Source: Naegleria gruberi (lineage: Eukaryota). Taken from it: 64,000 bases of DNA. Positions 5,194-62,079 of this stretch are shown here, piece by piece; the first letter of the stretch is position 1, and each line of letters starts with the position of its first letter. Below the pieces are notes generated by a model. It was given only the letters and a program-made list of their open reading frames with translations, was not told where the DNA came from and made no database searches. The stretch lies in assembly GCA_000004985.1 (NCBI GenBank), contig GG738874.1; one strand, 5' to 3'. Both the position numbers and the translations under genes were made by a program.

Positions 5194-5198
5194 ATTCT

Positions 5199-6362: not shown

Positions 6363-6529
6363 TTTTTTTTATCTGATTCTTTTCGAAAGGTTTCACTAGT
6401 AATGCTCGAATTGGAAGGAAGAGTCCAAAGATGGTCTTCCAGCTGCTGTTGGAATCTGTAAATCTTTAGCTTAATATTTATTACTGTTCGATACCAGCTT
6501 GGCTAGACAGTAAATTTTATTATTAAAAA

Positions 6530-11655: not shown

Positions 11656-14600
11656 TTATTGGGTATTGGCAAAGAGGTTGGAAACACTTCTATTGTTTGA
11701 GTAGAGGAGTGGATTGTTTTTCAAGTGTCTGTGATGTTTGTCATTGAGCAAATAGGTCTTGACAATTCCCTTTCCTTTCACATCAACTTCTCTCTCTTCA
11801 AAATCATATCCCAAATCGAAAACTCTTTCATAAGTTGATCTGGAGATTTGAATTCGTCCATTCTTTGAAGTGGATTCCATTCGAGAAGCAATATTGATGG
11901 TATCACCCCATAAATCGTAGGCAAACTTTTTCATTCCAATCACTCCAGCAACAACTGATCCTGTATTAATTCCAACTCGAATATTGATTTGTTGAGGTGG
12001 TGGAGAGGATGATTTCACCTTTAATTCATTATCTGTTTCCTTAACAACCTCCTCTTGTTCATTATTATCAACAGATTTGAGTCGATTTGAATTGAAATCA
12101 TTTATCACTCCAAATGTTTCAATTGCAAATTTTAAAACTCTTTCAGGATGATCACTTGTTGCAGCTCCAGGTAATCCACCCACTGCAAAATAGGCATCTC
12201 CAATTGTTTTGATCTTTTCCAAATCATATTTTTCAGTCAACATGTCAAATCCATTCACAATTGAGTTCAACATCATTACTAAATCAGTGGCTTGCATATT
12301 ACTACTTATGGCTGTAAATCCAACCATATCTGAAAAGAAACAAGTGATATCATCCAATTTTTCAGCAATGAATGTATGTCCACTTTTCAATCTTGAAGCA
12401 ACACTTGTTGGTAAGATATTCTTCAAGAGATTATCCGATTTTTGTTTCTCTTCACTCAATAAGGCATTTTGTTTCTTTTCAGAAGTTAAATCTTTCATTG
12501 TGACAATCAGAATATTTCTCATTGAACCTCTTTCACCTTGAATTTTGACAGTGAAGAGTGTTATTTTGCAAGGGAATTTGGTTTGATTTCTTCTGATACA
12601 ATCTAATTCAACAATTTCACATTTTCCATTTCCTTCTTCACTCTCCTTGCTGGATTGTTTCAATTGAACATCTTCATCATCTTGATCTTCATCCTTCTTA
12701 TCAGAATCTTTTCCACTCTTTTTGAAAATATACTTGATACACTTGTTGAGTTCATCTTGGTGTGTTGATTCAACCAATTGTGAAATTGAAGTTCCCAAAA
12801 CATCAATTGGTTTCATTCCAAACATTTTCAATGCAGAATAATTCAAAAATTCAATTTCATGATTCTCATTACAAATAATACTTCCTTCAACACTTGAATT
12901 GAAAACATTCTTCAAATCAGAAATGGATGAAGCGGAAGATGATGATGATTTGTCCTTCTTTTTCATTCTTGTACTCAATGAATTGGTATTGTTATAGAGG
13001 ATAAAGTTTCTCAATGTTTCATTCCTCTCTAAAACTTCAACTGGAATATATTGTGACATTAATCGAAGTGAATGTAATTGACCACAATAATTGGAGTAGA
13101 TGATATACATCAGAAAGAAGAAAACCATACACCCAACAATTTCCACACCTGCAAAGCTTATTACTACATCATAAGAGGGAGCTGTAGAGGAGGAAATGAA
13201 TGCCTTGATGAAAATTGTGAACTTGTTACTCAATGCTAGTGCCATTCTCATAGCAAGGTTATGCCGTATCCCTAAATCAGCTATTGGAAGAAGAATACCT
13301 TTTGGAGTTGCTGCCTTTTGAAGAGAATTTTGCTTTCTGGAGTCAGTCAATAATTGAGGAACCAGGGTCATGTAATCATTCAAAAGTGTTTCCAAACCGA
13401 TGCAGTACATCATATTTGTTTCTATTGTAAGAGTCATATTATTTTCTTGCAAATAGTCAGAGCAATTAGATGAAACGCCATGATTAATAAGTGAGTCAAC
13501 ACCTGGATACATTCCTAAAATTGGTCTGGTACCAACAGAGGCATCCCCATAAATTAATCTTGACCACATACTACTAAGAGTTGGTAATCTATTTGTTGCT
13601 CTGTCAAAGAGTACATTGAAATTTGTAACAGTATTGAATAATCTTGGATCACCATATGTAACATTTCTTTTGAAATTAACTGCCAATGGAGAAATATTGT
13701 TTGAAATTTCACTTGCAACAAAGTAGGTCATTACTTCACCTGTGTTAAATGCGATTCTCTGTACAGATGTTGCAGCTTGAATACTTAATCTTACATTGTT
13801 CATCACTCTACCAGCAGTTTGGGCATTGAAGTCGCTTTCATAATAGAACATGGCAATACTTGCACATGTAAATAAGGTAATCAGCGAAATCAAAATAATT
13901 GTTGAAATGTTTGATTTCATTTTGGCAAGTGAGAAAGTATTGTCAGCATTATTGGCAGTATCAGTTGTTTTGTTGTTGAGAGAGTGAAATATTTTTCCAA
14001 TCACATCTTTGCTCAAATGTTTTTCATATATTTTCACAATTTTTGTCATATGACTCATTTCAAATATCATATAACTCAAATAAGCAATACTGATCAAAAA
14101 GAATGCAACTAGAACTGCACCTGAATAATACACCAAATTTTGAGTTGTTAGATCTACTGCATCTGTTGATCTATCAAGATAACGGGCGCAAAAAGTATCA
14201 AAAGCCAGTGAAGCAGTTTCTCTATTCGCAAACAGGAACATGAAATTGTAATTCTTCAATGGGTGAAAGTACAAATCAGTTGCTGCAATATTTAGCAATA
14301 GAGTTTGATAGGACGGATCATAGTTATGGCTTGAAATATTTGTCAACAAGTTAATTGGAAAGGTGTCAATCATATTTTGGGTATACTTGATCATGTGGTT
14401 TGTAAATTCAAGAATGGATATATTCTTTTGACTTGCACTTCCTAAATCATACAAATTCAAATCTTTTGAATTTTCATTTGGAAAGTTACAAGTGTAAATG
14501 TTAGCAGAATAATCTGAATATACATCTACATCGAAAGAATTACTTTGACTCAATTTGATAAGATTCTTGTAAATATCAATATTGTCTTGCAATCGTTTGT

Positions 14601-17136
14601 AGGAATTCTTGATATATTCAGTTTTGGAAAGAGTCTCATATCCTTGATAGGTATTTGGCCATGGATATTCAAAAAACATGAAGGTATTAATGAAGTTCTG
14701 TGTTGCCCTAATGTTTCTAAGTACAGAGTAAGGAGAAATACTTGGTTGACAAACTTGTTGGAGGTAAGGAACTCCTGATTTTACCATATTTGAATAATAG
14801 GCACTGAGAGCCAGTGATGCAACAAACAGAGCAACAACAACCAGGGCGTAAATGCAAGTGATAGATAGTGTGAGAGTATTTGATCTTTGTGATGAAATGG
14901 CATTCTTGAAAATTTGCTCCTTTTTAATCTTTGGATTTTCAAATGCACTTGCCATATCATCTTCATTTGGTTCCTCTTGAGCCAAGTACATTTCATAAGT
15001 ATTTTTTACCTCTGACACAAGTGGCATAATTCTATTTCCTCTCTTATTGACTGTATTATTTGCAAATGAAGCTTTCCTTCTCTTTTTAATTTCCTCTTCT
15101 TCAATGGAGGACGCTTCATTGTAATAGTATTGTGCTAATTCTGAATTGAATTCAAAATTTTCCAAAAAGTTTCCATATAATCTGAGAAGTGTCTTGTTAT
15201 TCTTATTGTTGAAAATTAAATTTTGCAACGTATTTCTACATTGAGTGGTCAAAGCATAAATGGAACGATTAATCTTTTCAACAGATGAATAATTAATTCT
15301 TTCAGAGGCCATTTCTTTCCAAAAGTTTCTGTGAAGAACCAACAAGTTATTTTGATTCTTTTCTAGAATATCTAATTGAGAGGTTAATTCAAATGAATTG
15401 CTTGTTGATTTGGATTTTAAATTGAATGATTCAATTTGTTTCATTTTCTCTCTGATTTTAAATTGTTGGAAAATGTTTGGATGTTGTGATGAGGCTCTTT
15501 TCAATAAACTCATTGAAAAGACACAATTATTTGAATCTAACCATTGTGTTTGAATCAAGAGTGCAGAATAGATTAATAGATCAACATTATTGAATGATTT
15601 TTGATGAGCTGCACCTCTTATGAAAGACATGGCCAATTCACAATCTTTCAATATTTGATTATTTTCAGTAGTGCTATTATTGTTAGTATTATTGGATGAT
15701 TTGTTTAGTGTAGAATTGGATAAACATGATTTGATGAATAATTTCAATAATGATAACTTGTTGAAATCTTCAAACATGTAATATAAATTCATTGCATTCT
15801 TTTCAATTAAAATAAGTGATGAAATGGTTCCATAATTTTCATGACCTTCAATTCCATTCAATATCATATTTCTTGCTCTCTTCAATTGTAAACGTTGATA
15901 CAGTTCCATTGTCAATGTGCCAACAGTAAAGAAAATGATAATAAGAGCAAGTGTCATTAATGAAAATGCAATTCCCATCATTTCAAAATTGGCCCTCTCA
16001 GAATCTGAAGATGAAGATGTTATCGATGATGAATTGACCAATGAAGAAACGAGTGAACCAATACTCGCACCAACTCTTGCTGACATTACACCAAAATACA
16101 ATGAATTTTCAAATCTTCTCAAACATGGCATGCTATAGAATACCAAAACACAACAAATTAGTGAAACTAGTAAATGAAAAATTGCTGATATGAAAATATA
16201 ATTGGTTGGTAATAATTGAGACAATACCAATTGTAAAATACTCAGACAACCAATCAAACTAAAAATGAATGGATTTTCAATCAACATTGGAATTTGAGAT
16301 TCTGGATTTGAATTGCATGTTATAAATTCTGATAATGGAAAGACAAAAGTGACCAAAACTAAAATTGAAATAATTGAAAGAATTAACATGATCAAATTGG
16401 TGGTGTCATTAATACATGCTTGATTCGGATATCTCATCAATGAAGCAATCATATCAGAAGATTCATCAGCATCATTCATCATCATTGTTGAACTACAATT
16501 GAGAAAACCAAGCAACACATAAACAAACAACAAGGAGAATGGTTTTACAATCAAAGCACAATAAAAAGTAAACCATTTCAATTTCTTATAATACTTGTTC
16601 TGTTTGTTGGCTAATCGAATTGAAATTACATAAAAAACAGCCATAATCAATATAATTGCAATGAAAACAGAACCAATTCCAACAACACCCAAATAAGGAA
16701 TCATTCTTGCAATCAAAGTCGTTGGAAAATTGAAAGCATCAATTAAAATATAACTTCCAACATGTCCCCATTTAAAATCTGAAAGAGTTGTCATGAAAAT
16801 TAAACACCACATCCAATAAACATTCACAAATAAAAAGATTGAATAATTTTTCCATCCCTTCTTTGCCTCACAATCTTGTAAAGTGATAATACTATTGGTG
16901 AGTAATATCTTTGCCTGATAAGTGATTGAATTAGTTTCGGTTGTGGTTGTATGAGTGTTGGCACTGTGCAAACTTTCAGAGCCAACATGAGATGGTGTTG
17001 GTTGTAAGAGATTAGATGGATGTTGTTGCTGAGCATTGAAGGAGAAGGCAGCGCTGTAGGAATCGAATAAATTATTGGAAGAAATGTTTCGTGTTGTTTC
17101 GTTTGGATTGGAATGATTTGAGTTGGATTCCTCCAT
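11656..17136 (-). CDS. Receptor-type class III nucleotidyl cyclase, predicted adenylyl cyclase (1826 aa), tandem copy 1.
   Basis: The C-terminal cyclase homology domain contains FSDMVGFTAI, KIKTIGDAYFAVGG, GSVVAGVIGMKKFAYDLWGDTINIASRMES. The purine-specifying residues are Lys (KIKTIG) and Asp (YDLWG), as in adenylyl cyclases; guanylyl cyclases have Glu and Cys. Upstream lie an N-terminal ~6-TM block, a predicted helical region, and two more TM segments flanking a ~350-aa extracellular segment. A PAS-like segment precedes the catalytic domain. No intron is needed. Confidence 0.85.
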   Translation of the reverse strand: MEESNSNHSNPNETTRNISSNNLFDSYSAAFSFNAQQQHPSNLLQPTPSHVGSESLHSANTHTTTTETNSITYQAKILLTNSIITLQDCEAKKGWKNYSIFLFVNVYWMWCLIFMTTLSDFKWGHVGSYILIDAFNFPTTLIARMIPYLGVVGIGSVFIAIILIMAVFYVISIRLANKQNKYYKKLKWFTFYCALIVKPFSLLFVYVLLGFLNCSSTMMMNDADESSDMIASLMRYPNQACINDTTNLIMLILSIISILVLVTFVFPLSEFITCNSNPESQIPMLIENPFIFSLIGCLSILQLVLSQLLPTNYIFISAIFHLLVSLICCVLVFYSMPCLRRFENSLYFGVMSARVGASIGSLVSSLVNSSSITSSSSDSERANFEMMGIAFSLMTLALIIIFFTVGTLTMELYQRLQLKRARNMILNGIEGHENYGTISSLILIEKNAMNLYYMFEDFNKLSLLKLFIKSCLSNSTLNKSSNNTNNNSTTENNQILKDCELAMSFIRGAAHQKSFNNVDLLIYSALLIQTQWLDSNNCVFSMSLLKRASSQHPNIFQQFKIREKMKQIESFNLKSKSTSNSFELTSQLDILEKNQNNLLVLHRNFWKEMASERINYSSVEKINRSIYALTTQCRNTLQNLIFNNKNNKTLLRLYGNFLENFEFNSELAQYYYNEASSIEEEEIKKRRKASFANNTVNKRGNRIMPLVSEVKNTYEMYLAQEEPNEDDMASAFENPKIKKEQIFKNAISSQRSNTLTLSITCIYALVVVALFVASLALSAYYSNMVKSGVPYLQQVCQPSISPYSVLRNIRATQNFINTFMFFEYPWPNTYQGYETLSKTEYIKNSYKRLQDNIDIYKNLIKLSQSNSFDVDVYSDYSANIYTCNFPNENSKDLNLYDLGSASQKNISILEFTNHMIKYTQNMIDTFPINLLTNISSHNYDPSYQTLLLNIAATDLYFHPLKNYNFMFLFANRETASLAFDTFCARYLDRSTDAVDLTTQNLVYYSGAVLVAFFLISIAYLSYMIFEMSHMTKIVKIYEKHLSKDVIGKIFHSLNNKTTDTANNADNTFSLAKMKSNISTIILISLITLFTCASIAMFYYESDFNAQTAGRVMNNVRLSIQAATSVQRIAFNTGEVMTYFVASEISNNISPLAVNFKRNVTYGDPRLFNTVTNFNVLFDRATNRLPTLSSMWSRLIYGDASVGTRPILGMYPGVDSLINHGVSSNCSDYLQENNMTLTIETNMMYCIGLETLLNDYMTLVPQLLTDSRKQNSLQKAATPKGILLPIADLGIRHNLAMRMALALSNKFTIFIKAFISSSTAPSYDVVISFAGVEIVGCMVFFFLMYIIYSNYCGQLHSLRLMSQYIPVEVLERNETLRNFILYNNTNSLSTRMKKKDKSSSSSASSISDLKNVFNSSVEGSIICNENHEIEFLNYSALKMFGMKPIDVLGTSISQLVESTHQDELNKCIKYIFKKSGKDSDKKDEDQDDEDVQLKQSSKESEEGNGKCEIVELDCIRRNQTKFPCKITLFTVKIQGERGSMRNILIVTMKDLTSEKKQNALLSEEKQKSDNLLKNILPTSVASRLKSGHTFIAEKLDDITCFFSDMVGFTAISSNMQATDLVMMLNSIVNGFDMLTEKYDLEKIKTIGDAYFAVGGLPGAATSDHPERVLKFAIETFGVINDFNSNRLKSVDNNEQEEVVKETDNELKVKSSSPPPQQINIRVGINTGSVVAGVIGMKKFAYDLWGDTINIASRMESTSKNGRIQISRSTYERVFDLGYDFEEREVDVKGKGIVKTYLLNDKHHRHLKNNPLLYSNNRSVSNLFANTQ

Positions 17137-18513
17137 CTTTCTTTTGGTTTTTTTTTGAAAATTGTAGTTTTTGTGCCGCCCGGGCGGGTAAGTTGTCAGA
17201 AGTTTCAGATTCGAATAACTTCAACTATACTTCTGTACTGAACTTTAGATGTTGAACATAATTTCCTTCTTGAAATTTGTTTAGTTCGACCGATAGTGAA
17301 ATTACTTTGTTGAGATAAGTTCGCAATGTCTATCAGAATTACATCATGAGATTTCAAATAAAAAAATTATTCGAAATATGGTTATATCATTCACTAGAAT
17401 AAATGTTTGTAAACTATATAGTTTGATTTCTAGTGATTGGTCATTAATTTTGCAACCAGGTTCATGCTCCTTATGATAAGTTTACTTTCGAATATATACA
17501 ATTACAAATGAAAATGGAAATAAAAATTCTCAATTAATTTTGATGTTTGTAATTAATGACAGGTTTTGAGATAATGGTGGGCTAGGAACATAACGAAAAT
17601 GATTTTCTTGCCGTTTGCCCTCTTGATGTGTTTTGAAGCCAAGCGTCATCTTTTAAATTTACTTTAATGTCCAACATTTTAGAGGATAGAACGTTTATTC
17701 CCACTAGTAATATCACCATCAAGAGTTCTTCATCAGATATCTCGAAATCCTTTCTTTTGTTCTTCAAGTTCATGTTTGATTTTTTCTTGCCTTTTTGAGA
17801 GTTGTTTTTGGTTTTTTCAATTTTTTCATATTTATTTTCAAAGGCCACATCAAAGCATCGAAGGAGATTGGCTTCACACAAGATTTTAAGCAATTTGGAA
17901 ATACAGGTAAAGTGCTTTATTTTGAAACATCACAAAAAATCAAACAACAATCTTTTAATAATTAGCTGAAGATTGAGCCTTTTCAAATAATATCAAGTCT
18001 TTATTCAATAATTGCCAAATCCTTACAATTTTTATCTCACGATCTGGCAAACATTGAAATTGTTAATTAATCATGATCGATTGTTTAATAGATTGATCAA
18101 AAAACAGATTGATTAGATGGATTTTAATCGATCAACATGGATGAGATGGAAAAATGATTGGTGTTGAGTGAAAAAATTGTTTCTGGAAAACTGCAATATT
18201 CATCGAGTGGCAAATTTCACTTCATGGTGAATTTTCCAACATGGCAAAGTTCATGTTTAAGAGATTTTCTCCTAAGGTCCATATAAGGGTTGTGGCATTA
18301 TCTTCCTCACGAATAAAATCATCAAAGTTGAGCATATATTTTTTCAACTGTAAAAGGGGAATAATGTGTTCAATGTAACCTCATTGAGCACTGAAACAGA
18401 AAGTTTATTCTCTTAATGTACAAATTCAGCGTAAAACGATTTTCTTTGCTTGTATTAATATTATAATAAAATTATAGGAATATATAAATATTATTTTAAT
18501 CTTTCAACATGGT

Positions 18514-21500
18514 TTAGTTGGAGAAAAGTATTGGCATGCTTCTATTGTTTGAGTAGAGGAGTGGATTGTTTTTCAAGTGTCTGTGATGTTTGTCATTGAG
18601 CAAATAGGTCTTGACAATTCCTTTTCCTTTCACATCAACTTCTCTCTCTTCAAAATCATATCCCAAATCGAAAACTCTTTCATAAGTTGATCTGGAGATT
18701 TGAATTCGTCCATTCTTTGAAGTGGATTCCATTCGAGAAGCAATATTGATGGTATCACCCCATAAATCGTAGGCAAACTTTTTCATTCCAATCACTCCAG
18801 CAACAACTGATCCTGTATTAATTCCAACTCGAATATTGATTTGTTGAGGTGGTGGAGAGGATGATTTCACCTTTAATTCATTATCTGTTTCCTTAACAAC
18901 CTCCTCTTGTTCATTATTATCAACAGATTTGAGTCGATTTGAATTGAAATCATTTATCACTCCAAATGTTTCAATTGCAAATTTTAAAACTCTTTCAGGA
19001 TGATCACTTGTTGCAGCTCCAGGTAATCCACCCACTGCAAAATAGGCATCTCCAATTGTTTTGATCTTTTCCAAATCATATTTTTCAGTCAACATGTCAA
19101 ATCCATTCACAATTGAGTTCAACATCATGACTAAATCAGTGGCTTGCATATTACTACTTATGGCTGTAAATCCAACCATATCTGAAAAGAAACAAGTGAT
19201 ATCATCCAATTTTTCAGCAATGAATGTATGTCCACTTTTCAATCTTGAAGCAACACTTGTTGGTAAAATGTTCTTCAAGAGATTATCCGATTTTTGTTTC
19301 TCTTCACTCAATAAGGCATTTTGTTTCTTTTCAGAAGTTAAATCTTTCATTGTGACAATCAGAATATTTCTCATTGAACCTCTTTCACCTTGAATTTTGA
19401 CAGTGAAGAGTGTTATTTTGCAAGGGAATTTGGTTTGATTTCTTCTGATACAATCCAATTCAACAATTTCACATTTTCCATTTCCTTCTTCACTCTCCCT
19501 CTTCACTTGTTTCAATTGAACATCTTCATCATCTTGATCTTCATCCTTCTTATCAGAATCTTTTCCACTCTTTTTGAAAATATACTTGATACACTTGTTG
19601 AGTTCATCCTGTTGAGTGGATTCAACTAATTGTGAAATTGAAGTTCCCAAAACATCAATTGGTTTCATTCCAAACATTTTCAATGCAGAATAATTCAAAA
19701 ATTCAATTTCATGATTCTCATTACAAATGATACTTCCTTCAACACTTGAATTGAAAACATTCTTCAAATCAGAAATGGATGAAGTTGAAGATGATGATGA
19801 CTTGTCCTTCTTTTTCATTCTTGTACTCAATGAATTGGTATTATTATAGAGGATAAAGTTTCTCAATGTTTCATTCCTCTCTAAAACTTCAACTGGAATA
19901 TATTGTGACATTAATCGAAGTGAATGTAATTGACCACAATAGTTCATATAGATAGTGTAAAGCAGACTAAATATAACCAAACATGCCAAAAATTCTAAAC
20001 AAGCAAAAACAATGGTAACACCAAACGAAGGATTTGATGATGAGCTCACAAATACCTTCATAAATGTAACGAACTTGTTGGTAAGAGCTACACTCATTCT
20101 CAACGCTTGGTTATGTGATAGAGCAACATCTGTTGGTGCAAGAAGAATACCTTTTGGAGTTGCTGCCTTTTGAAGAGTGTTTTGCTTTCTAGATTCGGTC
20201 AATAATTGAGGAATCAATGTCAAATAATCATTTAAAAGTGTTTCCAAACCAACACAATACATCATATATGATTCCATTGTTAATGTAATATTATTCTTTT
20301 GAAGGTAGTCAGAGCAATTAGATGATACACCTTGAGTAACAAGAGAGTCAACATCAGAATATCTTCCCAATATCTGGTCATCTCCAGTGTTTGGATCACC
20401 ATAAATTAGTCTTGACCACATACTACTAAGAGTTGGAAGTCTTGTTGTCACTCTGTCAAAGAGTACATTGAAATTTGTAACAGTATTGAATAATCTTGGA
20501 TCACCATATGTAACATTTCTTTTGAAATTCACTGCCAATGGAGAAATTTTGTTAGAAATTTCACTTGCAACAAAGTAGGTCATTACTTCTCCACTGTTAA
20601 ATCCAATTCTTTGAATAATTGTGGCAGCTTGAATACTCAATCTTACATTCTTCATAACCTTAGAACTGCTGAAAGCGTTGGCATTACTTTCATAATAGAA
20701 CATGGCAATACTTGCACATGTAAATAAGGTAATCAGAGAAATCAAAATAATTGTTGAAATGTTTGATTTCATTTTGGCAAGTGAGAAAGTATTGTCAGCA
20801 TTATTGGCTGTATCAGTTGTTTTGTTGTTGAGAGAGTGAAATATTTTTCCAATCACATCTTTGCTCAAATGTTTTTCATATATTTTCACAATTTTTGTCA
20901 TATGACTCATTTCAAATATCATATAACTCAAATAAGCAATACTGATCAAAAAGAATGCAACTAGAACTGCACCTGTATAATACACCAAATTTTGAGTTGA
21001 CAATTCAATTGAATCAATAGATCTATCAAGATAACGGGCACAAAAAGTATCAAAAGCCAGTGAAGCAGTTTCTCTATTCGCAAACAGGAACATGAAATTG
21101 TAATTCTTCAATGGATTGAAGTACTTGTCGCTAGCAACTAAATCCAACAACGCTGATTGAGTAAATGCATCATTGTTGTTATTGGAAATATTTTGTAGTA
21201 AATCCCAAGGAAATTCATTGATTACATTCTGAGTATATTTGATCATATTGTTTGTAAATTCAAGAATTGAAACATTCTTTTGAGATGAACTTCCCAAATC
21301 GTATATCGTGACATCTTTCGAATTTTCATTTGGATAATTGATGGTAAAATTATTAATAGAATAATCTGAATATACAGTCTCATCAAATGAATTACTCTGA
21401 CCTAATTTGATCAAAGTCTTATAAACCTCTAGCTCTTCTTTAAGTCTTTTCAAAGAGTTGGCAAAGTAATTAGGTTTTGTAGAAATAATATTTCCCTGAT

Positions 21501-23761
21501 AACTAATAGGCCATGGATACTCAAATAACATGAAGGTATTTACAAAATTTTGAGTGGCTCTAACATTTCTTAGAGCAGAATAAGGAGAAATACTTGGTTG
21601 ACAAACTTGTTGAAGGAAAGGCACTCCTGAAATTACTGCATCAGAGTAGTATGAACTCAGTGCTATGGAAGAAACAACAAGGCACAAGCAAACAAATATG
21701 TAGAGTAAACTAATTATAACTGTTGTAGAATTTGACCTTTGTGATGAAATTGCATTCTTGAAAATTTGCTCTTTCCTCATCTTGGGATTTTCAAATGCAC
21801 TTTCCATATCATCTTCATTTGGTTGTTCTTCTACTGGGAATAAGTATGGTTCAAAGTTGGCCTTGGTTTCGTGGAGAGGCATTACACGGTTAGTTCCTCT
21901 CTTATTACTAGTAGCATTACTAAACACAGAAGCTCTTCTCTTCTTTTTCATTTCCTCTTCTTCAATGGAGGAAGCTTCATTGTAATAGTATTGTGCTAAT
22001 TCTGAATTGAATTCAAAATTTTCCAAAAAATTTCCATATAATCTGAGAAGTGTCTTGTTATTCTTATTGTTGAAAATTAAATTTTGCAACGTATTTCTGC
22101 ATTGAGTGGTCAAAGCATAAATGGAACGATTAATCTTTTCAACAGATGAATAATTAATTCTCTCAGAGGCCATTTCTTTCCAAAAGTTTCTGTGAAGAAC
22201 CAACAAGTTATTTTGATTCTTTTCTAGAATATCTAATTGAGAGGTTAATTCAAATGAATTGCTTGTTGATTTGGATTTTAAATTGAATGATTCAATTTGT
22301 TTCATTTTCTCTCTGATTTTAAATTGTTGGAAAATGTTTGGATGTTGTGATGAGGCTCTTTTCAATAAACTCATTGAAAAGACACAATTATTTGAATCCA
22401 ACCATTGTGTTTGAATCAAGAGTGCTGAATAGATTAATATATCAACATTATTGAATGATTTTTGATGAGCTGCTCCTCTTATGAAGGACATGGCCAATTC
22501 ACAATCTTTCAATATTTGATTATTTTCAGTAGTGCTATTATTGTTAGTTGGATGATTTGTTTAGTGTAGAATTGGATAGACATGATTTGATGAATAATTT
22601 CAATAATGATAACTTGTTGAAATCTTCAAACATGTAATATAAATTCATTGCATTCTTTTCAATCAAAGTAAGTGGAGAAATGGTTCCATAATTTTCATGA
22701 CCTTCAATTCCATTCAATATCATATTTCTTGCTCTCTTCAATTGTAAACGTTGATAAAATTCCATTGTCAATGTGCCAATAGTAAAGAAAATGAAAATAA
22801 GAGCAAGTGTCATTAATGAAAATGCAATACCCATCATTTCAAAATTGGCCCTCTCAGAATCTGAAGATGAAGATGTTATGGATGATGAATTGACCAATGA
22901 AGAAACGAGTGAACCAATACTCGCACCAACTCTTGCTGACATTACACCAAAATACAATGAATTTTCAAATCTTCTCAAACATGGCATGCTATAGAACACC
23001 AAAACACAACAAATCAGTGAAACTAGTAAATGAAAAATTGCTGAAATGAAAATATAATTGGTTGGTAATAATTGAGACAATACCAATTGTAAAATACTCA
23101 AAGAACCAATCAAACTGAAAATGAATGGATTTTCAATCAACATTGGAATTTGAGATTCTGGATTTGAATTGCAAGTTATGAATTCTGATAATGGAAAGAC
23201 AAAAGTGACCAAAACTAAAATTGAAATAATTGAGAGAATTAACATGATCAAATTGGTGGTATCATCAATACATGCTTGATTAGGATATCTCATCAATGAA
23301 GCAATCATATCAGTAGATTCATCAGCATCATTCATCATCATTGTTGAACTACAATTGAGAAAACCAAGCAACACATAAACAAACAACAATGAGAATGGTT
23401 TTACAATCAAAGCACAATAAAAAGTGAAGTATTTCAATTTCTTATAATACTTGTTCTGTTTGTTGGCTAATCGAATTGAAATTACATAAAAAACAGCCAT
23501 TATTAATATAATTGCAATAAAAACAGAACCAATTCCAACAACACCCAAATAAGGAATCATTCTTGCAATCAAAGTCGTTGGAAAATTAAACGCATCAATT
23601 AAAATATAACTTCCAACTTTTCCCCAATTAAAATCTGAAAGAGTTGTCATGAAAATTAAACACCACATCCAATAAACATTCACAAATAAAAAGATTGAAT
23701 AATTTTTCCATCCCTTCTTTGCCTCACAATCTTGTAAAGTGATAATACTATTGGTGAGCAA
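18514..23761 (-). CDS. Receptor-type adenylyl cyclase, tandem copy 2. It is disrupted. A 5-nt deletion relative to copy 1 breaks the frame between 22512 and 22544. The 5' end is separated from the body by N-gaps and an inserted duplicate block.
   Basis: The first ~885 nt (18514-19398) and the whole catalytic and N-terminal TM parts are nearly identical to copy 1. The extracellular middle part is clearly diverged. Alignment of 22500-22560 with 15640-15720 shows 'attgttagttggatgatt' in copy 2 versus 'attgttagtattattggatgatt' in copy 1. Confidence 0.7.
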
Positions 23762-23824
23762 TATCTTTGCCTGANNNNNNNNNNNNNNNNNNNNNNNNNN
23801 NNNNNNNNNNNNNNNNNNNNNNNN

Positions 23825-24895
23825 GTGGCAAATGTTGAGAGTGTACCATTAATATCAATCTTTTTGATAGACCAAGTTGGATTGTTTTCAACAAAGTAAA
23901 TATCACCAGTCATTAACGAAACTGTGACTGTGTTTGGATTGGTCAACTTGACAGTATTAGCTGGAAGGCCATCAGTGTTTTCATTAGATGATGAACCTGA
24001 TGCTGCAACACCAGCAATGGTTGATACAACAGTAGGAATGTTATCGAAAACTTCTTGTTCAGGATCAACAATAACACCAGTCCAATTATAAGTTAATTTT
24101 CTGATTAAATTATTTGCTCTGTCAATAATGATCAAATCTTGAGGTCTTTCATCTTCTACCAAATTTACAAGAGGTGTAGGAATTGTTCTAGGATAGAATG
24201 CAATAGCGTGTGGATGACCGATTGGTGTATCAAGTCCATTATAGCCATCACCAAGATTACCTCCAGCGATGGTTTCCAATTTGTATGTAGGAGCCAAGTT
24301 GTTATCTGAAGATGTTGCATTGATGGTAGTAGTACTAAACAACAACATCATCAAGAGAAGGCTACTAATAAATAAAGATAATAAATATTCGTGATGAGAA
24401 AAAGATTTTACTCTCCCTGCAGAGTCGAAAAACCTCTTCATTTTTGTGCCTTTTTTTCTTCTTGTCGATTCACTCTACTTGTGCATAAGAGAAGAATGTT
24501 TGATGGATGGGAAGTAATTTTGGAAGGGCAAGGGCAGAAAGTATGTTGTTTGATGCTAAGAAGTGATCTCCGCATTTTGATTTTGTTGGAGTAAATTTAA
24601 TTGGCTGATTATTTTTTGTTAGTATTCTTTTTGTCTTCCATTTACGAGGAAGATCTTCATGAAAGATTATTTATCTGATATTAAAGATAGCATTGTGATG
24701 AACAGATGAAAGCAACACATTTTTATTTTTTTTAAATTATGAATTGTTTATTCTTGTAACGGTAACTTTTACTGCCCGCCACGTTTAAAAAATGAAAAGA
24801 AAGCAAGAAACAAAAAACACCAAGAAATTATCTTCATCATCCAATGAAGGACCAACAAAAAAGTTGAAGCAATCCAACCTTCTCTCCCTATTCAA
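23825..24895. repeat. Diverged (~98-99% identical) duplicate of 30467..31525. That source region holds the 5' end of the NHL/EGF gene, the bidirectional promoter, and the first ~100 nt of the AP-endonuclease gene. The duplicate is flanked by N-runs and sits inside the 5' region of adenylyl cyclase copy 2.
   Basis: Direct sequence comparison shows scattered substitutions. A 3-nt indel gives SGSSSNENTDG here versus SGSSNENTDG in the source. Further small indels occur near 24640. Confidence 0.8.
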
Positions 24896-24945
24896 NNNNN
24901 NNNNNNNNNNNNNNNNNNNNNNNNNNNNNNNNNNNNNNNNNNNNN

Positions 24946-25145
24946 GCCTGATAAGTGATTGAATTAGTNTCGGTTGTGGTTGTATGAGTGTTGGCACTGT
25001 GCAAACTTTCAGAACCAACATGAGATGGTGTTGGTTGAAGCATTGAGGAAGAGAAAGCTACGTTGGTATTTTGTTCGAGCAGGTTATTGGAAGAGGAGGA
25101 TGAACCATTACTTGCATTAGGTACTGCAAGTAAGTCTTCGTTCAT
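24946..25145 (-). CDS. Displaced 5' coding segment (N-terminal ~65 aa) of adenylyl cyclase copy 2.
   Basis: Its translation ...MLQPTPSHVGSESLHSANTHTTTT.TNSITYQ matches the copy-1 N-terminus. The nucleotides match 16900-17040. The segment is bounded by an N-run at 24896-24945. Confidence 0.5.
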
Positions 25146-25529: not shown

Positions 25530-28500
25530 TTAAGGTTCTTCAGTGAGTGTTGCGTAATTTCCATTTCCATCATTTTGATTTTGTGGAGCGGTTTGTCCTT
25601 GTTTCTTCTTGTAAATGTAATATCCAACACCAATGACAATTGCAATAATTATCATCAAAATAAATCCTACAAGAACAACGATATATGATTTGTCACCCTT
25701 TTCTGTAATAATTGTTCCAGCACTACTTGATGTTGGCTTATTGCTTGATGTGCTTGGTTTGTTTGGGGATGGAGTTGGTTTGTTTGGAGATGGAGTTGGT
25801 TGAGGAGTCTTACCACTGCTAGATGTTGGTGGAGTTATTGGTTGAGCAATAAGGGCAAAAGATGAAGGCCAATGAGTAGTTGAGCATACAACTGAATAAG
25901 TGCTTGCTGTTGCTCCTTGTTGTGAACTCAAAATGGTGGTTGTAACTCTGTCAGTCTTCCAAGAATCAGTGGCTTTATCGTAATATGCACAAGCAATTCT
26001 GGACAAGGCGACACTATGTCTTGCTAATGCAGATGTTGGAACGACTATATTGTGCATGTTTAAAAGGATTGGATCAGGAAGGTTATTTAATTCTACTCTT
26101 TGGTTGTTTCCTTGTTGAGTAATGATGAATGTAACAGCAGGGCTCAATACTTTAGAGTTAACACTTCTAATATCAGAAACTGATGAGGCCATATTGAGTG
26201 GAATCTCTTCATCTCTGAGAATAGTTTCCAAATAATCAGAAATTGATGCAGGAAGAGTAATGAAAATATCCTTGAATTTGGTAAATGTAATATTAAAGCT
26301 CTCCATATCTTCCATATCTTGTACGTCTATAATGTTTGTTTCTGTCAAATTCTTCAAAGCAGTATTGTTTACAACAGAACAGAAGAGGGAAGTATCTCCT
26401 GGTGGACAAATAATATTTGTAGCACATTGAGGACCATTATATCCATAAGCACATTGACATGAATCAGGAGATTCACAAACACCATTTCCAGAACATACAT
26501 TAGGATCAGAATAATGAATACCATAACAATAGTAATTCTCACAATTATTACCAGAGAATCCACTTGTGCAATTACACTTGTTTGGAGATGAACAAATACC
26601 ATTACCTGAACAAACTTGAGGATCATTCTTATCCAAGCCATTACAAGAGAAGCTTTCACAATTTTCTCCTTCATATCCAAGAACACAAGTACAATTATTT
26701 CCAGATGAGCAAACACCATGACCTGAGCACACATTGGTATCGTTTGAAGGAATACCATGGCATTTGAATGCTTCACAAGTGTGTCCATAGTATGGTTCAG
26801 TACATTCACAGAGGTCAGGTTTTGAACAAACACCCTTTGATGAACATACTTGTGTATCATTGTGCATAATTCCAAAGCAGTCAAAATGTTCACAAACATT
26901 TCCGTAATATCCAGCTTGACATTCACACTTGTCTACAGATTTGCAAATACCATTACCAGAGCATACTTGCTTGTTAGAATTGAGTACACCAAAGCATTGA
27001 TAATTTTGACATTCCTTTCCTGAATAGCCAGCTTGACAAGTGCAATTGTTTCCAGATGAGCAAACACCATGCCCTGAGCAAACAGTTGAAGTATTAGTTG
27101 AGGAAATACCATAACATGTGAATGATTCACAATTAACTCCTTCATAAGCCTCCTTACATTCACAACGACCTGGGGCTGTGCAGTATCCATTTGCTGAACA
27201 CACATTTGGATCGGCGTGTTCTACTCCATTACAGTAATAAAATTCACAACTAGAACCGTTAAAGTTTTGTTCACATACACACTTATCAATTGCTTCACAA
27301 ACACCATGTGAGGAACATACTTTCTCATCGTTGTGGGCCAATCCAAAGCATCCATAATTCTCGCATTCGTTTCCATAGTATCCAGGTTTGCAGGTACAAT
27401 TATTTCCAGATGAACAAACACCATGACCTGAGCAAACAGTGGAGTCATTTGATTGTTTTCCGAAACAGGTAAAATATTGGCAAGTTTCACCAGAGTGACC
27501 ATCGCGGCATTCGCACTTGTTTGGCAAACTACAGAGACCAGCTTGAGAACAAACTGATGGATTTGAGTGCTCTACACCAAAACAGTCATAATGCTCGCAA
27601 TTATTTCCATAATATCCATTGTTACAAGTACAATTATTGGCAGAAATACAAACACCTTGAGATGAACAAACGTTTGGATCTTCCTTTGGAATTCCATTGC
27701 AACCAAATAATTCACATTGCTCGCCATAATAACCTGCGAAACATGAACAATTATTGTAAGACTCACAAACACCATTGCCCGAACAGACAGTTTCATTTGA
27801 AGGGAGCAAACCAAAGCAAATTCTCGGTAATTTTTCACATTCAGCAGCATCATTAAGTCTGTAACCCTTTGGACACATTGCTGTCAACTTTCTAACTCTA
27901 GAATTACCACTGTCAGCAATATAAACAGTACTTCCGTCTGGTGAGATATCAGCAAACAATGGTCTGTTCAAAAGTGCGAGCCTTGAATCTAAAACAACTT
28001 CTCCATTGAATCCATTAATACCAGTTTTACCAGCAATAGTAGAGATGGTAGCGTTTTCTTCCTTAAGATTAAATCTTATAATTGTGCTATCTCCATTACA
28101 AACAACAATAAAATCACCCTTTGGAGAAACTGAAACAGATCTTGGATAGTAAATAGTATCATCAGATTCAGAACCTTCCAAAACGGTGGAAATAATTCCG
28201 TCATTTGAAACTTTTCTAATTCTATGACTGGCAAAGTCAGAAATGAATACTTCTCCTTCTGGGGATAAGGCAACTGAAGTAGGATTAGCCAATGAAGCAA
28301 GTGTAGCCTTAATATTATCAGCATTATAACCATAATTGTAGTTACCAGCAATAGTTGAAATAACACCCTCTGCGGATACTTTTCTAATTCTGTTAGCAAC
28401 ATTATCAGCAATGTAAATTTCACTTGATGCAGAAACAACAAATGAAGATACACTTGACAAAGCAGCTTGTGTAGCCAATAATCCATCACCAATACCACCA

Positions 28501-31076
28501 GCAATAGTTTCAATTACATTGTTGGAGAGTTTTCTAACTCTATTATTGCCACTATCAGCAATAAAGATATTATCAGAACTATCCATAGACAATGAAGAAG
28601 GATAATTGAGATAAGTTGTTGTGGCCAAACCATCACCATTAAATTCATAGTTTGAGTCAGATCCAGCAATTAATTGAAGAGAACCATTATCATACTTGCT
28701 TATCATATTACCATGGGCAATATAGATTTCATCACTGCTGGAAATAACAATACTAGCAGGACTTGAAACCTCAACAAGTGTGGTAATATTTCCATCGAGG
28801 CCAATTTTTCTGATTCTATCATTTCTGGTATCGGCAATAAACATTTCACCAATTGAATTGATAGCAATAGAATTTGGGGCATTGAGAGAGGCACAACAAG
28901 CCTTTGAACCATCTCCAGCAAAAGTTGGTGAACCATTTCCAGATACAGAAGTAATAATTCCATTAGAAATCTTTCTAATTCTATTATTGTTAGTATCTGC
29001 AAAATAAATATCACCATTAGAGGATATGTGCAAACCATTTGGATTGTTCAACAAGGCATCGGTAGCGCTAATGTTGTTTCCATTATAACCTGTAACGGTT
29101 TGATTACCAGCAATAATAGTGACAACACCATCTGGAGACAATTTACTGATTGTGCTAAGTCCTGTAAAGTAAATATCATCTCCAAATTCATTGACACTGG
29201 TTGGGAACTCTACCACATTAGTAATAGTAGAAATGATACCGGTTGTTTGATTGATCATTCTAATTCTATTATTTCCACTGTCACAAATGTAAATGTTGCC
29301 AGAAGTCTTTGAGGCAAAAACACCAGATGGATAGAAGAGAATTGATGAGGTAGCAACTTGTCCATCTCCTGCAAAATTATTGAGGATACCACCAGCAACA
29401 CGCTTAATAATACCATTTGAAAGAATCTTGTAAATGACATTTTCTACATTAAAGTAGGTCTCTCCTGTACCGGCAATGTAGAAGGAAGCAGATGGATTGG
29501 AAATTAATGTTGCATTGGCCAATTTACCATCCAAATCAGTTAATGTGTTTACAGGTTCTGACGAACCAATGACTGTAGAAATAATGCCTTGTTGATTAAT
29601 TCTTCTAATTCTATTGTTACTTCCATCGGCAATGGTAATAATATCGGCTCCATCCTTTTGGGCGACATGAACATGATTAGGTGAGAGTGCAGACTGAATT
29701 GCTGGGCCATTATCTCCCAAATATGTTGGTTGTCCATTACCAAAAATTGTTGAAATGATTCCTTCCTCAGTAATCTTTCTAATTCTATTGTTCATGCAGT
29801 CGGCAATAATAATCTCCTCAGCAGAAATAGCAATGAATGAAGGATTGTTCAAAGTTGCAGCAGTAGCTAAGCCACCATCTCCAATTGGTCCGATATTAGA
29901 TCCAGTACCGGCTACAATGGAAATTGTATTGGTTGCTGGATTTAACATTTTGAGAATGTGTTGGGATTGTTCCAAAAAGTAGACTTCACCCTCCTCACCA
30001 ACAGCAATACTGGTTGGAGCAATGGTTGCATTGAGAGCATCAATAGGAATTGGTTGGATTGGAGAACCTGGAATTGGTTGAGCACCTGAACCTGCAACTG
30101 TTGTAATAATTCCATTGACAATCTTTCTAATGTAAAACTTGTCGGCAATGTAAATTTCTGGGATGGTATTAATTGGAGCATCTTCCATTCTAAAAAGAGC
30201 AAGTCCTGTTGGTTGAGAAAGGAGAGCATCAGTAGCATTGATACCATTGCCAAAGTATCCCTCTTGTCCACATATACCAGCAATGGTAGTGATGGTCTTG
30301 TTGGAAATTGATAACTTTCTAATTCTAAAGTTTTGAGTATCTACAATATAGATAAACTCCTCTACACCTTCCATTGAATAGACAATTTGACTTGGAGCAG
30401 ACAATTGTGCATCACTCAAAGGAGAAGGAACATTATCAGAACAAATAGAGTCCAAATTGTTAGTGGCAAATGTTGAGAGTGTACCATTAATATCAATCTT
30501 TTTGATAGACCAAGTTGGATTGTTTTCAACAAAGTAAATATCACCAGTCATTAACGAAACTGTGACTGTGTTTGGATTGGTCAACTTGACAGTATTAGCT
30601 GGAAGGCCATCAGTGTTTTCATTAGATGAACCTGATGCTGCAACACCAGCAATGGTTGATACAATAGTAGGAATGTTATCGAAAACTTCTTGTTCAGGAT
30701 CAACAATAACACCAGTCCAATTATAAGTTAATTTTCTGATTAAATTATTTGCTCTGTCAATAATGATCAAATCTTGAGGTCTTTCATCTTCTACCAAATT
30801 TACAAGAGGTGTAGGAATTGTTCTAGGATAGAATGCAATAGCGTGTGGATGACCGATTGGTGTATCAAGTCCATTATAGCCATCACCAAGATTACCTCCA
30901 GCGATGGTTTCCAATTTGTATGTAGGAGCCAAGTTGTTATCTGAAGATGTTGCATTGATGGTAGTAGTACTAAACAACAACATCATCAAGAGAAGGCTAC
31001 TAATAAATAAAGATAATAAATATTCGTGATGAGAAAAAGATTTTACTCTCCCTGCAGAGTCGAAAAACCTCTTCAT
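25530..31076 (-). CDS. Giant type-I surface protein of 1848 aa. It has a signal peptide, ~20 NHL (six-bladed beta-propeller) repeats, ~16 tenascin-type EGF repeats, a Ser/Pro/Thr-rich stalk, one TM helix, and a 25-aa cytosolic tail.
   Basis: The N-terminal hydrophobic leader is LLSLFISSLLLMMLLFS. Many NHL-type units recur, for example IYIADSGNNRIRKI, FIADTRNDRIRKI, YFADTNNNRIRKI. The EGF units follow C.G....VCSG.G.C.....C.C..GY.G..CE..C. The stalk is TPQPTPSPNKPTPSPNKPSTSSNKPTSSS. The TM helix is YIVVLVGFILMIIIAIVIGVGYYIY. Confidence 0.85.
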   Translation of the reverse strand: MKRFFDSAGRVKSFSHHEYLLSLFISSLLLMMLLFSTTTINATSSDNNLAPTYKLETIAGGNLGDGYNGLDTPIGHPHAIAFYPRTIPTPLVNLVEDERPQDLIIIDRANNLIRKLTYNWTGVIVDPEQEVFDNIPTIVSTIAGVAASGSSNENTDGLPANTVKLTNPNTVTVSLMTGDIYFVENNPTWSIKKIDINGTLSTFATNNLDSICSDNVPSPLSDAQLSAPSQIVYSMEGVEEFIYIVDTQNFRIRKLSISNKTITTIAGICGQEGYFGNGINATDALLSQPTGLALFRMEDAPINTIPEIYIADKFYIRKIVNGIITTVAGSGAQPIPGSPIQPIPIDALNATIAPTSIAVGEEGEVYFLEQSQHILKMLNPATNTISIVAGTGSNIGPIGDGGLATAATLNNPSFIAISAEEIIIADCMNNRIRKITEEGIISTIFGNGQPTYLGDNGPAIQSALSPNHVHVAQKDGADIITIADGSNNRIRRINQQGIISTVIGSSEPVNTLTDLDGKLANATLISNPSASFYIAGTGETYFNVENVIYKILSNGIIKRVAGGILNNFAGDGQVATSSILFYPSGVFASKTSGNIYICDSGNNRIRMINQTTGIISTITNVVEFPTSVNEFGDDIYFTGLSTISKLSPDGVVTIIAGNQTVTGYNGNNISATDALLNNPNGLHISSNGDIYFADTNNNRIRKISNGIITSVSGNGSPTFAGDGSKACCASLNAPNSIAINSIGEMFIADTRNDRIRKIGLDGNITTLVEVSSPASIVISSSDEIYIAHGNMISKYDNGSLQLIAGSDSNYEFNGDGLATTTYLNYPSSLSMDSSDNIFIADSGNNRVRKLSNNVIETIAGGIGDGLLATQAALSSVSSFVVSASSEIYIADNVANRIRKVSAEGVISTIAGNYNYGYNADNIKATLASLANPTSVALSPEGEVFISDFASHRIRKVSNDGIISTVLEGSESDDTIYYPRSVSVSPKGDFIVVCNGDSTIIRFNLKEENATISTIAGKTGINGFNGEVVLDSRLALLNRPLFADISPDGSTVYIADSGNSRVRKLTAMCPKGYRLNDAAECEKLPRICFGLLPSNETVCSGNGVCESYNNCSCFAGYYGEQCELFGCNGIPKEDPNVCSSQGVCISANNCTCNNGYYGNNCEHYDCFGVEHSNPSVCSQAGLCSLPNKCECRDGHSGETCQYFTCFGKQSNDSTVCSGHGVCSSGNNCTCKPGYYGNECENYGCFGLAHNDEKVCSSHGVCEAIDKCVCEQNFNGSSCEFYYCNGVEHADPNVCSANGYCTAPGRCECKEAYEGVNCESFTCYGISSTNTSTVCSGHGVCSSGNNCTCQAGYSGKECQNYQCFGVLNSNKQVCSGNGICKSVDKCECQAGYYGNVCEHFDCFGIMHNDTQVCSSKGVCSKPDLCECTEPYYGHTCEAFKCHGIPSNDTNVCSGHGVCSSGNNCTCVLGYEGENCESFSCNGLDKNDPQVCSGNGICSSPNKCNCTSGFSGNNCENYYCYGIHYSDPNVCSGNGVCESPDSCQCAYGYNGPQCATNIICPPGDTSLFCSVVNNTALKNLTETNIIDVQDMEDMESFNITFTKFKDIFITLPASISDYLETILRDEEIPLNMASSVSDIRSVNSKVLSPAVTFIITQQGNNQRVELNNLPDPILLNMHNIVVPTSALARHSVALSRIACAYYDKATDSWKTDRVTTTILSSQQGATASTYSVVCSTTHWPSSFALIAQPITPPTSSSGKTPQPTPSPNKPTPSPNKPSTSSNKPTSSSAGTIITEKGDKSYIVVLVGFILMIIIAIVIGVGYYIYKKKQGQTAPQNQNDGNGNYATLTEEP

Positions 31077-31425
31077 TTTTGTGCCTTTTTTTCTTCTTGT
31101 CGATTCACTCTACTTGTGCATAAGAGAAGAATGTTTGATGGATGGGAAGTAATTTTGGAAGGGCAAGGGCAGAAAGTATGTTGTTTGATGCTAAGAAGTG
31201 ATCTCCGCATTTTGATTTTGTTGGAGTAAATTTAATTGGCTGATTATTTTTTGTTAGTATTCTTTTTGTCTTCCATTTACGAGAAGATCTTCACGAAAGA
31301 TTATTTATCTGATATTAAAGATAGCATTGTGATGAACAGATGAAAGCAACACATTTTTATTTTTTTTAAATTATGAATTGTTTATTCTTGTAACGGTAAC
31401 TTTTACTGCCCGCCACGTTTAAAAA
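31077..31425. promoter_or_regulatory. Divergent (bidirectional) promoter region between the NHL/EGF gene (minus) and the AP-endonuclease gene (plus).
   Basis: Head-to-head real ATGs lie 349 nt apart. The GC-rich motif CTGCCCGCCACG sits 15 nt upstream of the APE ATG in an otherwise AT-rich spacer. Confidence 0.4.
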
Positions 31426-54300: not shown

Positions 54301-54303
54301 CTA

Positions 54304-61945: not shown

Positions 61946-62079
61946 TGAAAGTGAAAATAAACTTGATTTTCTATCTCTACTCATCGAATGGAGCATTTTC
62001 ATGTATATATTGTTGGTTGAAGTGATGTATTTGATAGAGTTGGTCTGACTTGTCTTTCCTTTAAGTCAACCATAAAATA

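What the first reader, a model, noticed from the sequence alone, without database searches (positions are those of the whole stretch)
22500..25145. Adenylyl cyclase copy 2 is broken three ways: 5-nt frameshift, N-gaps, and a foreign ~1.07-kb block inside its 5' region
Relative to copy 1, copy 2 lacks 5 nt (tatta) at about 22530, and this splits the ORF. Its N-terminal coding segment lies at 24946-25145 beyond an N-run. Between that segment and the body, at 23825-24895, lies a ~98-99% identical copy of the NHL/EGF gene 5' end plus the bidirectional promoter and the first 100 nt of the APE gene. N-runs of 60 and 50 nt bound this block. One explanation is a real segmental duplication that pseudogenised the cyclase. 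The other is a haplotig or collapsed-repeat mis-join in the draft assembly. The duplicated block differs from its source by substitutions and a 3-nt indel, so it is not simply the same reads placed twice.
Basis: seen in the sequence. Interest (0 to 1): 0.55.

Follow-up and report, generated by a model that had tools for sequence, protein, structure and literature searches.

The report
Misplaced allelic contig inside cyclase gene
The "foreign block" inside the second adenylyl cyclase gene is most likely a small alternative-allele contig that the scaffolder dropped into an assembly gap of the Naegleria gruberi draft genome. It is probably not a real insertion, its main consequence is a chimeric protein entry in public databases, and only a 5-nt frameshift remains as a possible real lesion.

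Summary
The sequence facts are largely as reported. Copy 2 of a tandemly duplicated PAS/adenylyl cyclase gene lacks 5 nt relative to copy 1. A 1,071-nt block, 99.4% identical to the NHL/EGF–APE promoter region 6.6 kb away, sits between two 50-N gaps. The interpretation "broken three ways" does not hold.

The two cyclase contig ends flanking the block overlap by 6 nt (GCCTGA) and are colinear with copy 1, so no cyclase base is missing. The block is exactly one contig. It is homologous to its source from end to end, has no assembled junction with cyclase sequence, lies in the same orientation as its source, and occupies the scaffold gap nearest to that source. This is what a misplaced allelic contig looks like in a heterozygous Sanger draft, here Naegleria gruberi NEG-M.

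With the block removed, copy 2 is one 1,819-codon reading frame with a single lesion, the 5-nt deletion at 22548/22549. dN/dS against copy 1 is 0.25, so copy 2 is either a functional gene with a sequencing error or null allele, or a very young pseudogene.

The practical result is that the public protein XP_002676156.1 (D2VIU3_NAEGR) is a chimera: a block-derived NHL N-terminus spliced to the cyclase body. Low interest.

The parts
11656..17136 (-). Cyclase copy 1. Intact 1,826-aa ORF with an N-terminal block of about 7-8 TM segments, TmcB-type TPR, further TM segments, a PAS domain, and a class III cyclase catalytic domain.
   Evidence: ORF list; Pfam Guanylate_cyc 3.8e-52, PAS_9, TPR_TmcB; hydropathy
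18514..22512 (-). Cyclase copy 2, reading frame downstream of the frameshift (1,332 codons: TPR, TM segments, PAS, cyclase domain).
22547..22549 (-). Site of the 5-nt deletion in copy 2 (copy 1 has ATTAT at 15688-15692). It creates the stop TAA at 22544-22546.
   Evidence: Global alignment: the only non-multiple-of-3 gap in the homologous body
22544..23774 (-). Cyclase copy 2, TM-domain coding segment upstream of the frameshift. It runs to the end of the left contig.
23775..23824 (.). 50-N scaffold gap.
23825..24895 (.). Stand-alone 1,071-nt contig, an allele-like copy of the NHL/EGF 5' end, bidirectional promoter and first 34 APE codons. Most likely misplaced by the scaffolder.
   Evidence: 99.44% end-to-end match to 30463-31529; protein differences I->V and +Ser only
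24896..24945 (.). 50-N scaffold gap.
24946..25145 (-). Cyclase copy 2 N-terminal coding segment (ATG at 25145-25143). Its first 6 nt, GCCTGA, repeat the last 6 nt of the left contig (23769-23774). An N at 24969 marks low-quality sequence at the contig end.
30463..31529 (.). Source locus of the block: NHL/EGF gene 5' end (gene 25530-31076, minus strand), promoter, and APE 5' end (31426 onward, plus strand).
23847..24348 (-). Exon 1 of the public chimeric model XP_002676156.1, lying inside the block.
   Evidence: The spliced reconstruction translates exactly to P0008
18514..22424 (-). Exon 2 of XP_002676156.1 (cyclase copy 2 body). The predicted intron 22425-23846 swallows the N-gap, the TM-domain ORF and the frameshift.

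Best explanation
[quoted passage not shown] The assembler broke the contig about 90 nt inside the tract where copy 2 is 96-99% identical to copy 1. This left two contig ends that overlap by only 6 nt, too little to merge. A 1,071-nt contig representing the other allele (or a redundant near-identical read group) of the NHL/EGF-APE promoter region could not be placed at its true position 6.6 kb away, because the primary contig already occupied it. The scaffolder therefore put it, in the correct orientation, into the nearest gap. That gap happens to lie inside the cyclase gene.

The "foreign insertion" and the "N-gap break" are therefore artefacts. The one remaining lesion is a 5-nt deletion at 22548/22549. 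It is either a real, very recent or allele-specific null mutation in a gene that was otherwise maintained by selection, or a consensus error.

Shown here: contig-end overlap, colinearity, end-to-end homology of the block, a single frameshift, purifying selection, and the chimeric public model. Inferred: the scaffolder's behaviour and the allelic origin of the block.
For: 1. The cyclase contig ends flanking the block overlap by GCCTGA, and both map to copy 1 at 16913-16918. Merging them gives an alignment colinear with copy 1 across the join.
2. The block is exactly one contig bounded by Ns. It matches its source over its full length (1065/1071), and its ends fall at arbitrary points inside two coding sequences. 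No microhomology, repeat or GCCTGA occurs at the source boundaries.
3. No base of any contig joins block sequence to cyclase sequence.
4. The orientation matches the source. The gap the block occupies is the nearest gap to the source, and the next gap is at 54304.
5. The block differs from the source only by I->V, one extra Ser codon and two intergenic changes, which is allele-like. N. gruberi is reported to be heterozygous and diploid (PMC9928731).
6. The contig break lies just inside the near-identical paralogous tract (homology starts at 25040, the break is at 24946, local identity is 96-98%). A low-quality N sits 24 nt from the contig end.
7. The same window contains another implausible join: a (TTTGGG)n telomere-type array at 62700-63076, followed by a gap, then a second subtelomere with its own array.
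8. With the block removed, copy 2 has a single frame-breaking indel and no other stop codon. dN/dS against copy 1 is 0.25 overall and 0.13 upstream of the frameshift.
9. Organism and consequence: P0008 is XP_002676156.1 of N. gruberi NEG-M, and it is reproduced exactly by splicing block exon 24348..23847 to 22424..18514.
Against: - No reads, coverage data or independent assembly could be consulted. Every external search for this locus came back empty.
- A 6-nt overlap of the flanking ends could also be read as a target-site duplication of a real insertion.
- An assembler that trims at repeat boundaries could in principle produce contig ends exactly at real junctions.
- At 99.4% identity most overlap assemblers would have merged an allele, so why this one stayed separate is not explained.
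- A 5-nt deletion is not a typical Sanger consensus error, so at least that lesion may be real.
Confidence: 0.82

Rival explanations
1. Real, very recent duplicative insertion. A 1.07-kb or longer copy of the NHL/EGF-APE bidirectional promoter region was inserted into codon ~64 of cyclase copy 2 with a 6-bp target-site duplication (GCCTGA). This disrupted the gene and possibly created an NHL-cyclase fusion transcript like the RefSeq model. The assembler then broke at both repeat boundaries.
For: GCCTGA occurs on both sides of the block. The block differs from the source, so it is not the same reads placed twice. Assemblers can break at boundaries of 99%-identical repeats. A GT..AG pair allows the spliced model XP_002676156.1.
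Against: No junction is assembled on either side, and all four contig ends would have to be trimmed exactly at the junctions. The block has no transposon features and its source boundaries are featureless. The insertion site would coincide by chance with the edge of the near-identical paralogous tract, where a contig break is expected anyway, and with the gap nearest to the source. The RefSeq intron discards 405 codons that are conserved with copy 1 at dN/dS 0.13, which looks like a gene-predictor workaround rather than biology.
Confidence: 0.06
2. The block is a misplaced contig from a true paralogous second copy of the NHL/EGF-APE region elsewhere in the genome (for example another subtelomere), rather than from the other allele. 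For the cyclase this is still an artefact.
For: The window is subtelomeric and carries other duplicated segments (56870-57457 matches 62075-62661 at 90.9%). The block stayed unmerged despite 99.4% identity.
Against: The other duplicated segments in the window are far more diverged (79-91%). Placement next to the source in the same orientation points to mate-pair links into this very neighbourhood, which is expected for an allele.
Confidence: 0.1
3. Concerning the frameshift only: the 5-nt deletion is a consensus or assembly error, and copy 2 is a fully intact, functional 1,819-aa cyclase.
For: It is the single lesion in 5.4 kb. dN/dS is 0.13-0.26, and every other indel is a multiple of 3. It lies in an AT-rich, low-complexity Asn/Ser/Thr-coding stretch inside a tract 95-98% identical to copy 1, where reads of the two copies are easily confused.
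Against: Five-base deletions are unusual consensus errors in multi-fold Sanger coverage. No N or other low-quality mark is nearby. The deletion is not a simple repeat-unit slippage.
Confidence: 0.35

Closest known systems
Haplotig or allelic contig misplaced into a scaffold gap (a known artefact of draft assemblies of heterozygous genomes)
   Same: The contig is small and bounded by N-gaps on both sides. It matches a nearby locus end to end at allelic-level identity, in the same orientation, with no junction sequence. The flanking contigs abut each other.
   Different: Read depth and mate-pair evidence could not be examined, so allelic origin is inferred rather than shown.
Tandem-duplicate (unprocessed) pseudogene
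   Same: Copy 2 is a tandem paralogue of an intact gene and carries a frameshift that truncates the protein after the first TM block (about aa 478).
   Different: There is only one lesion, and the sequence shows strong purifying selection rather than neutral decay. Whether the lesion is real is unverified.
Naegleria gruberi expanded family of membrane PAS-domain class III adenylyl/guanylyl cyclases
   Same: Both copies have Guanylate_cyc and PAS domains plus multi-TM regions. Paralogues and a N. lovaniensis relative have the same N-terminal architecture.
   Different: Nothing unusual. The public model for copy 2 carries a spurious NHL-derived N-terminus.
Ectopic gene conversion between tandem paralogues
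   Same: Identity is mosaic, with tracts of 96-100% alternating with tracts of about 70%. dS ranges from 0.03 to 0.85.
   Different: No formal conversion test or outgroup phylogeny was run.

Membership tests
Misplaced allelic contig (haplotig) in a scaffold gap | The candidate is a whole contig delimited by gaps on both sides. | tested here: met
   N-runs at 23775-23824 and 24896-24945 bound 23825-24895 exactly.
Misplaced allelic contig (haplotig) in a scaffold gap | End-to-end colinear match to a primary locus at allelic-level divergence. | tested here: met
   1065/1071 identical over the full contig. The changes preserve coding.
Misplaced allelic contig (haplotig) in a scaffold gap | The flanking contigs are contiguous with each other once the contig is removed. 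| tested here: met
   6-nt overlap GCCTGA, and colinearity with copy 1 across the join.
Misplaced allelic contig (haplotig) in a scaffold gap | Half (haploid) read depth on both the contig and its primary counterpart, with mate pairs pointing to the primary locus. | not testable with these tools
   No reads are available here. Nanopore and Illumina data for NEG-M exist.
Real segmental duplication or duplicative insertion | Sequenced junctions between the inserted and the target DNA. | tested here: not met
   Both junctions are N-runs, and no contig contains both kinds of sequence.
Real segmental duplication or duplicative insertion | Target-site duplication or other insertion signature. | tested here: inconclusive
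   GCCTGA occurs on both sides, which is equally explained by two read ends overlapping by 6 nt. There are no terminal repeats or microhomology at the source boundaries.
Pseudogene | A disabling lesion. | tested here: inconclusive
   There is one 5-nt deletion giving a premature stop. Whether it is real in the genome is unverified.
Pseudogene | Relaxed constraint (dN/dS near 1) and accumulation of multiple lesions. | tested here: not met
   dN/dS is 0.25 overall and 0.13 upstream of the lesion. There are no other stops or frameshifts.
Class III adenylyl/guanylyl cyclase | Catalytic domain PF00211 above the gathering score. | tested here: met
   Copy 1 scores 177 bits and copy 2 scores 178.7 bits, against a cut-off of 21.9.

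The most novel reading that the evidence does not exclude
The block is a real, extremely recent (<=0.6% diverged) duplicative insertion of a bidirectional promoter plus two gene 5' ends into the cyclase coding region, with a 6-bp target-site duplication. It would give a nascent NHL-signal-peptide/cyclase fusion gene, as in the RefSeq model. That would be exon shuffling caught in the act in a subtelomeric signalling-gene cluster of Naegleria.
Probability: 0.06. Interest if true: 0.5.

Novelty: not a real feature. Interest (0 to 1): 0.12.

Why it matters
The value is mainly for curation. XP_002676156.1 / EFC43412.1 / D2VIU3_NAEGR, annotated "adenylate/guanylate cyclase" (1,470 aa), is very probably a chimera. 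Its first ~168 residues come from a misplaced NHL/EGF allele contig, and it lacks the real 478-residue N-terminal membrane domain. Any domain-architecture or signal-peptide analysis of the Naegleria cyclase family that uses this entry inherits the error. Biologically, a tandem cyclase pair with mosaic gene conversion, one copy perhaps carrying a young null allele, is ordinary in a genome with a very large cyclase family.

Tried and rejected
- **Independent copies of the locus.** None of these searches found one:
  - Word-indexed protein search with a repaired full-length copy 2 and with its N-terminal 674 aa. The best hit was 26% identical, so N. gruberi appears to be absent from or masked in that index.
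  - Exact-product contig look-ups for copy 1, for the NHL/EGF ORF and for P0008.
  - JGI metagenome scan by protein and by a 38-nt pattern spanning the join.
- **Metagenome relative.** An ENA metagenome contig 99.4% identical to the window's G-alpha gene shows that a close relative exists in metagenomes. No contig covering the cyclase could be retrieved.
- **Intron rescue of the frameshift.** 35 GT..AG pairs would restore the frame. All of them delete 25-130 codons that are conserved and uninterrupted in copy 1, so this was rejected as biology. One such acceptor is the one the public model uses.
- **Tandem-duplication periodicity as an explanation for the block.** The period is about 6.85 kb and the block's offset is 6.64 kb. 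The block has no homology to the inter-copy spacer, so this was rejected.
- **The genome paper.** Fritz-Laylin et al. 2010 could not be read in the library, so assembly parameters are not cited.

Full report
**What the window is**

The window is 33% G+C with long intron-free ORFs and N-runs of 50, 50, 649, 4,488 and 50 nt, so it is a draft scaffold. It is Naegleria gruberi NEG-M. A protein retrieved by an exhaustive HMMER search with the copy-1 N-terminus (P0008) maps to the window at essentially 100% identity. It is recorded as XP_002676156.1 / EFC43412.1 / D2VIU3_NAEGR, [quoted passage not shown], on a 401,612-bp scaffold. The window also ends in (TTTGGG)n arrays. That unit is the unusual candidate telomere repeat reported for N. 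gruberi (PMC3622300).

**Checking the observation**

Self-BLAST shows three relevant matches:
- 11687-16918 matches 18539-23774 at 90.3%.
- 16913-17008 matches 24946-25040 at 96.9%.
- 23825-24895 matches 30463-31529 at 99.44%.

Copy 1 is an intact 1,826-aa ORF (11656-17136, minus strand) with Guanylate_cyc, PAS and TmcB-type TPR domains and many TM segments.

The block carries the first 205 codons of the NHL/EGF gene, the intergenic promoter region, and APE codons 1-34. It differs from its source by one I->V substitution, one extra Ser codon, and a 1-nt indel plus one substitution in the intergenic part.

Copy 2 lacks 5 nt relative to copy 1, and this splits the frame.

Three details in the finding needed correcting. 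Both N-runs are 50 nt. The left contig ends at 23774. The deletion lies between 22548 and 22549, where copy 1 has ATTAT at 15688-15692.

The last six bases before the first gap (23769-23774, GCCTGA) are the same as the first six after the second gap (24946-24951). Both align to copy 1 at 16913-16918. If the block and the gaps are removed and the six bases merged, copy 2 aligns colinearly with copy 1 straight across the join.

No cyclase base is missing, so the gaps do not break the gene. The block is therefore the only thing separating two contigs that in fact abut.

**Why the block is most likely an artefact**

1. It is exactly one contig, and its homology to the source runs from its first base to its last. 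Its ends fall at featureless positions inside two coding sequences, as read ends would. There is no microhomology, repeat or GCCTGA at the source boundaries.
2. No contig contains both block and cyclase sequence, so no junction has actually been observed.
3. It has the same orientation as its source, 6.6 kb away, and it sits in the gap nearest to that source. The next gap is at 54304. This is where a scaffolder would put an allelic contig whose true place is already occupied.
4. Its differences from the source amount to 0.4-0.6% and all are compatible with function, which is allele-like. N. gruberi is reported to be heterozygous and diploid (PMC9928731).
5. There is an independent reason for a contig break at this spot. 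Homology between the two cyclase copies begins at 25040, and the next ~1.8 kb is 96-99% identical between the copies. The right-hand contig stops 95 nt into this tract, with a low-quality N 24 nt from its end.
6. The same window contains another implausible join. A telomere-type array at 62700-63076 is followed by a 50-N gap, then a second subtelomeric piece ending in its own array.

A real insertion would need all four contig ends to have been trimmed exactly at the junctions. The 6-nt overlap would also have to be a target-site duplication around a non-transposon segment. I put this at about 6%. A misplaced true paralogue from elsewhere in the genome gets about 10%. For the cyclase gene that is also an artefact.

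**What remains of "broken"**

With the block removed, copy 2 is one frame of 1,819 codons with a single lesion.
- Global alignment to copy 1 shows only one indel in the homologous body that is not a multiple of 3, and no other stop codon.
- Nei-Gojobori estimates give dN/dS = 0.25 overall (dS 0.27), 0.13 upstream of the lesion and 0.26 downstream.

Copy 2 has therefore been maintained by selection. It is either intact in reality, with the deletion a consensus error (about 35%), or it carries a very young or allele-specific null mutation (about 65%). The deletion is not a unit slippage and there is no low-quality mark nearby, which argues mildly that it is real. If it is real, translation ends after the first TM block at residue 478, and the PAS and cyclase domains are lost unless translation re-initiates.

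Rescue by an intron is not credible. Frame-restoring GT..AG pairs exist by chance, but each removes 25-130 codons that are conserved and uninterrupted in copy 1.

**Consequence in the databases**

P0008 / XP_002676156.1 (1,470 aa) begins MLLFSTTTINATSS...KKIDIN and then continues ALLIQTQWLD....

Splicing window 24348..23847 to 22424..18514 (minus strand) reproduces it exactly. The donor is GTACAC and the acceptor is TTCAG.

Its first ~168 residues come from the block. They carry the block-specific V and SSS, not the source's I and SS. The 1,422-nt "intron" swallows the N-gap, the whole 405-codon TM ORF and the frameshift. The public entry is therefore a predictor-made chimera caused by the scaffolding error.

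**Comparison with known things**

The gene is an ordinary member of the large Naegleria family of membrane PAS-domain class III cyclases. Paralogues and a N. lovaniensis relative share its N-terminal architecture.

The identity profile between the two copies is a mosaic. It is 96-99.5% over alignment columns 200-2000, about 70% over 2000-3000 and 3600-4000, and 99-100% over 4600-5400, with dS ranging from 0.03 to 0.85. This pattern is typical of gene conversion between tandem paralogues.

**Limits**

No reads, depth data or second assembly could be reached. All searches for independent copies of the locus came back empty. The verdict rests on assembly anatomy, not on read evidence. Public NEG-M Nanopore data would settle both the block and the frameshift directly.

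**Verdict**

The "three-way break" reduces to one unverified 5-nt deletion plus a probable scaffolding artefact. This is not a real genomic feature and its biological interest is low. It has modest curation value.

Noticed in passing
62700-63076 and 63658-64000: Two (GGGTTT)n arrays of about 63 and 57 units lie in the same orientation, separated by a 50-N gap and about 530 nt of unique sequence. The unit is the candidate N. gruberi telomere repeat (PMC3622300). An internal telomere array followed by a second telomere-ending contig suggests that chromosome-end contigs were chained by the scaffolder, or that there is an interstitial telomeric array.
   Followed up: partly
56870-57457 vs 62075-62661; 54108-55044 vs 56148-56860: Subtelomeric segments repeated at 79-91% identity flank the 649-N and 4,488-N gaps. 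The terminal ~10 kb of the window looks like several related chromosome-end pieces.
   Followed up: no
11656-17136 vs 18514-25145: Identity between the two cyclase copies is a mosaic: a 506-nt identical run in the catalytic domain and about 70% in the middle, with dS from 0.03 to 0.85. This indicates repeated gene conversion on top of an old tandem duplication. Homology stops at 17008/25040, so the first ~40 codons and the promoters of the two copies are unrelated.
   Followed up: partly
5191-6556 (L001): The ENA metagenome contig ERZ929261 k127_235142 is 99.4% identical to the G-alpha gene but has about 200 extra nt where the window has only 6394-6400. This could be a strain-level indel or an intron difference just upstream of, or in the 5' end of, the gene. 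It also shows that a near-identical Naegleria occurs in that metagenome.
   Followed up: no
5199-6362, 35869-37266, 45176-46798, 11656-25145: Signalling genes are clustered in this subtelomeric window: two G-alpha genes, an RGS-domain protein and two PAS-cyclases. There are also two NHL-repeat proteins (25530-31076 teneurin-like NHL/EGF; 50951-53152 NHL+BTB with a 168-nt tandem repeat x5.9).
   Followed up: no
10607-10796 vs 45831-45642: An inverted repeat of about 190 nt at 80% identity, with arms 35 kb apart. Its nature is unknown.
   Followed up: no
3214 and 24969: Single N bases inside contigs mark low-quality consensus positions. The one at 24969 falls in codon 59 of cyclase copy 2 (GAN, Asp or Glu; copy 1 has GAA).
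   Followed up: yes
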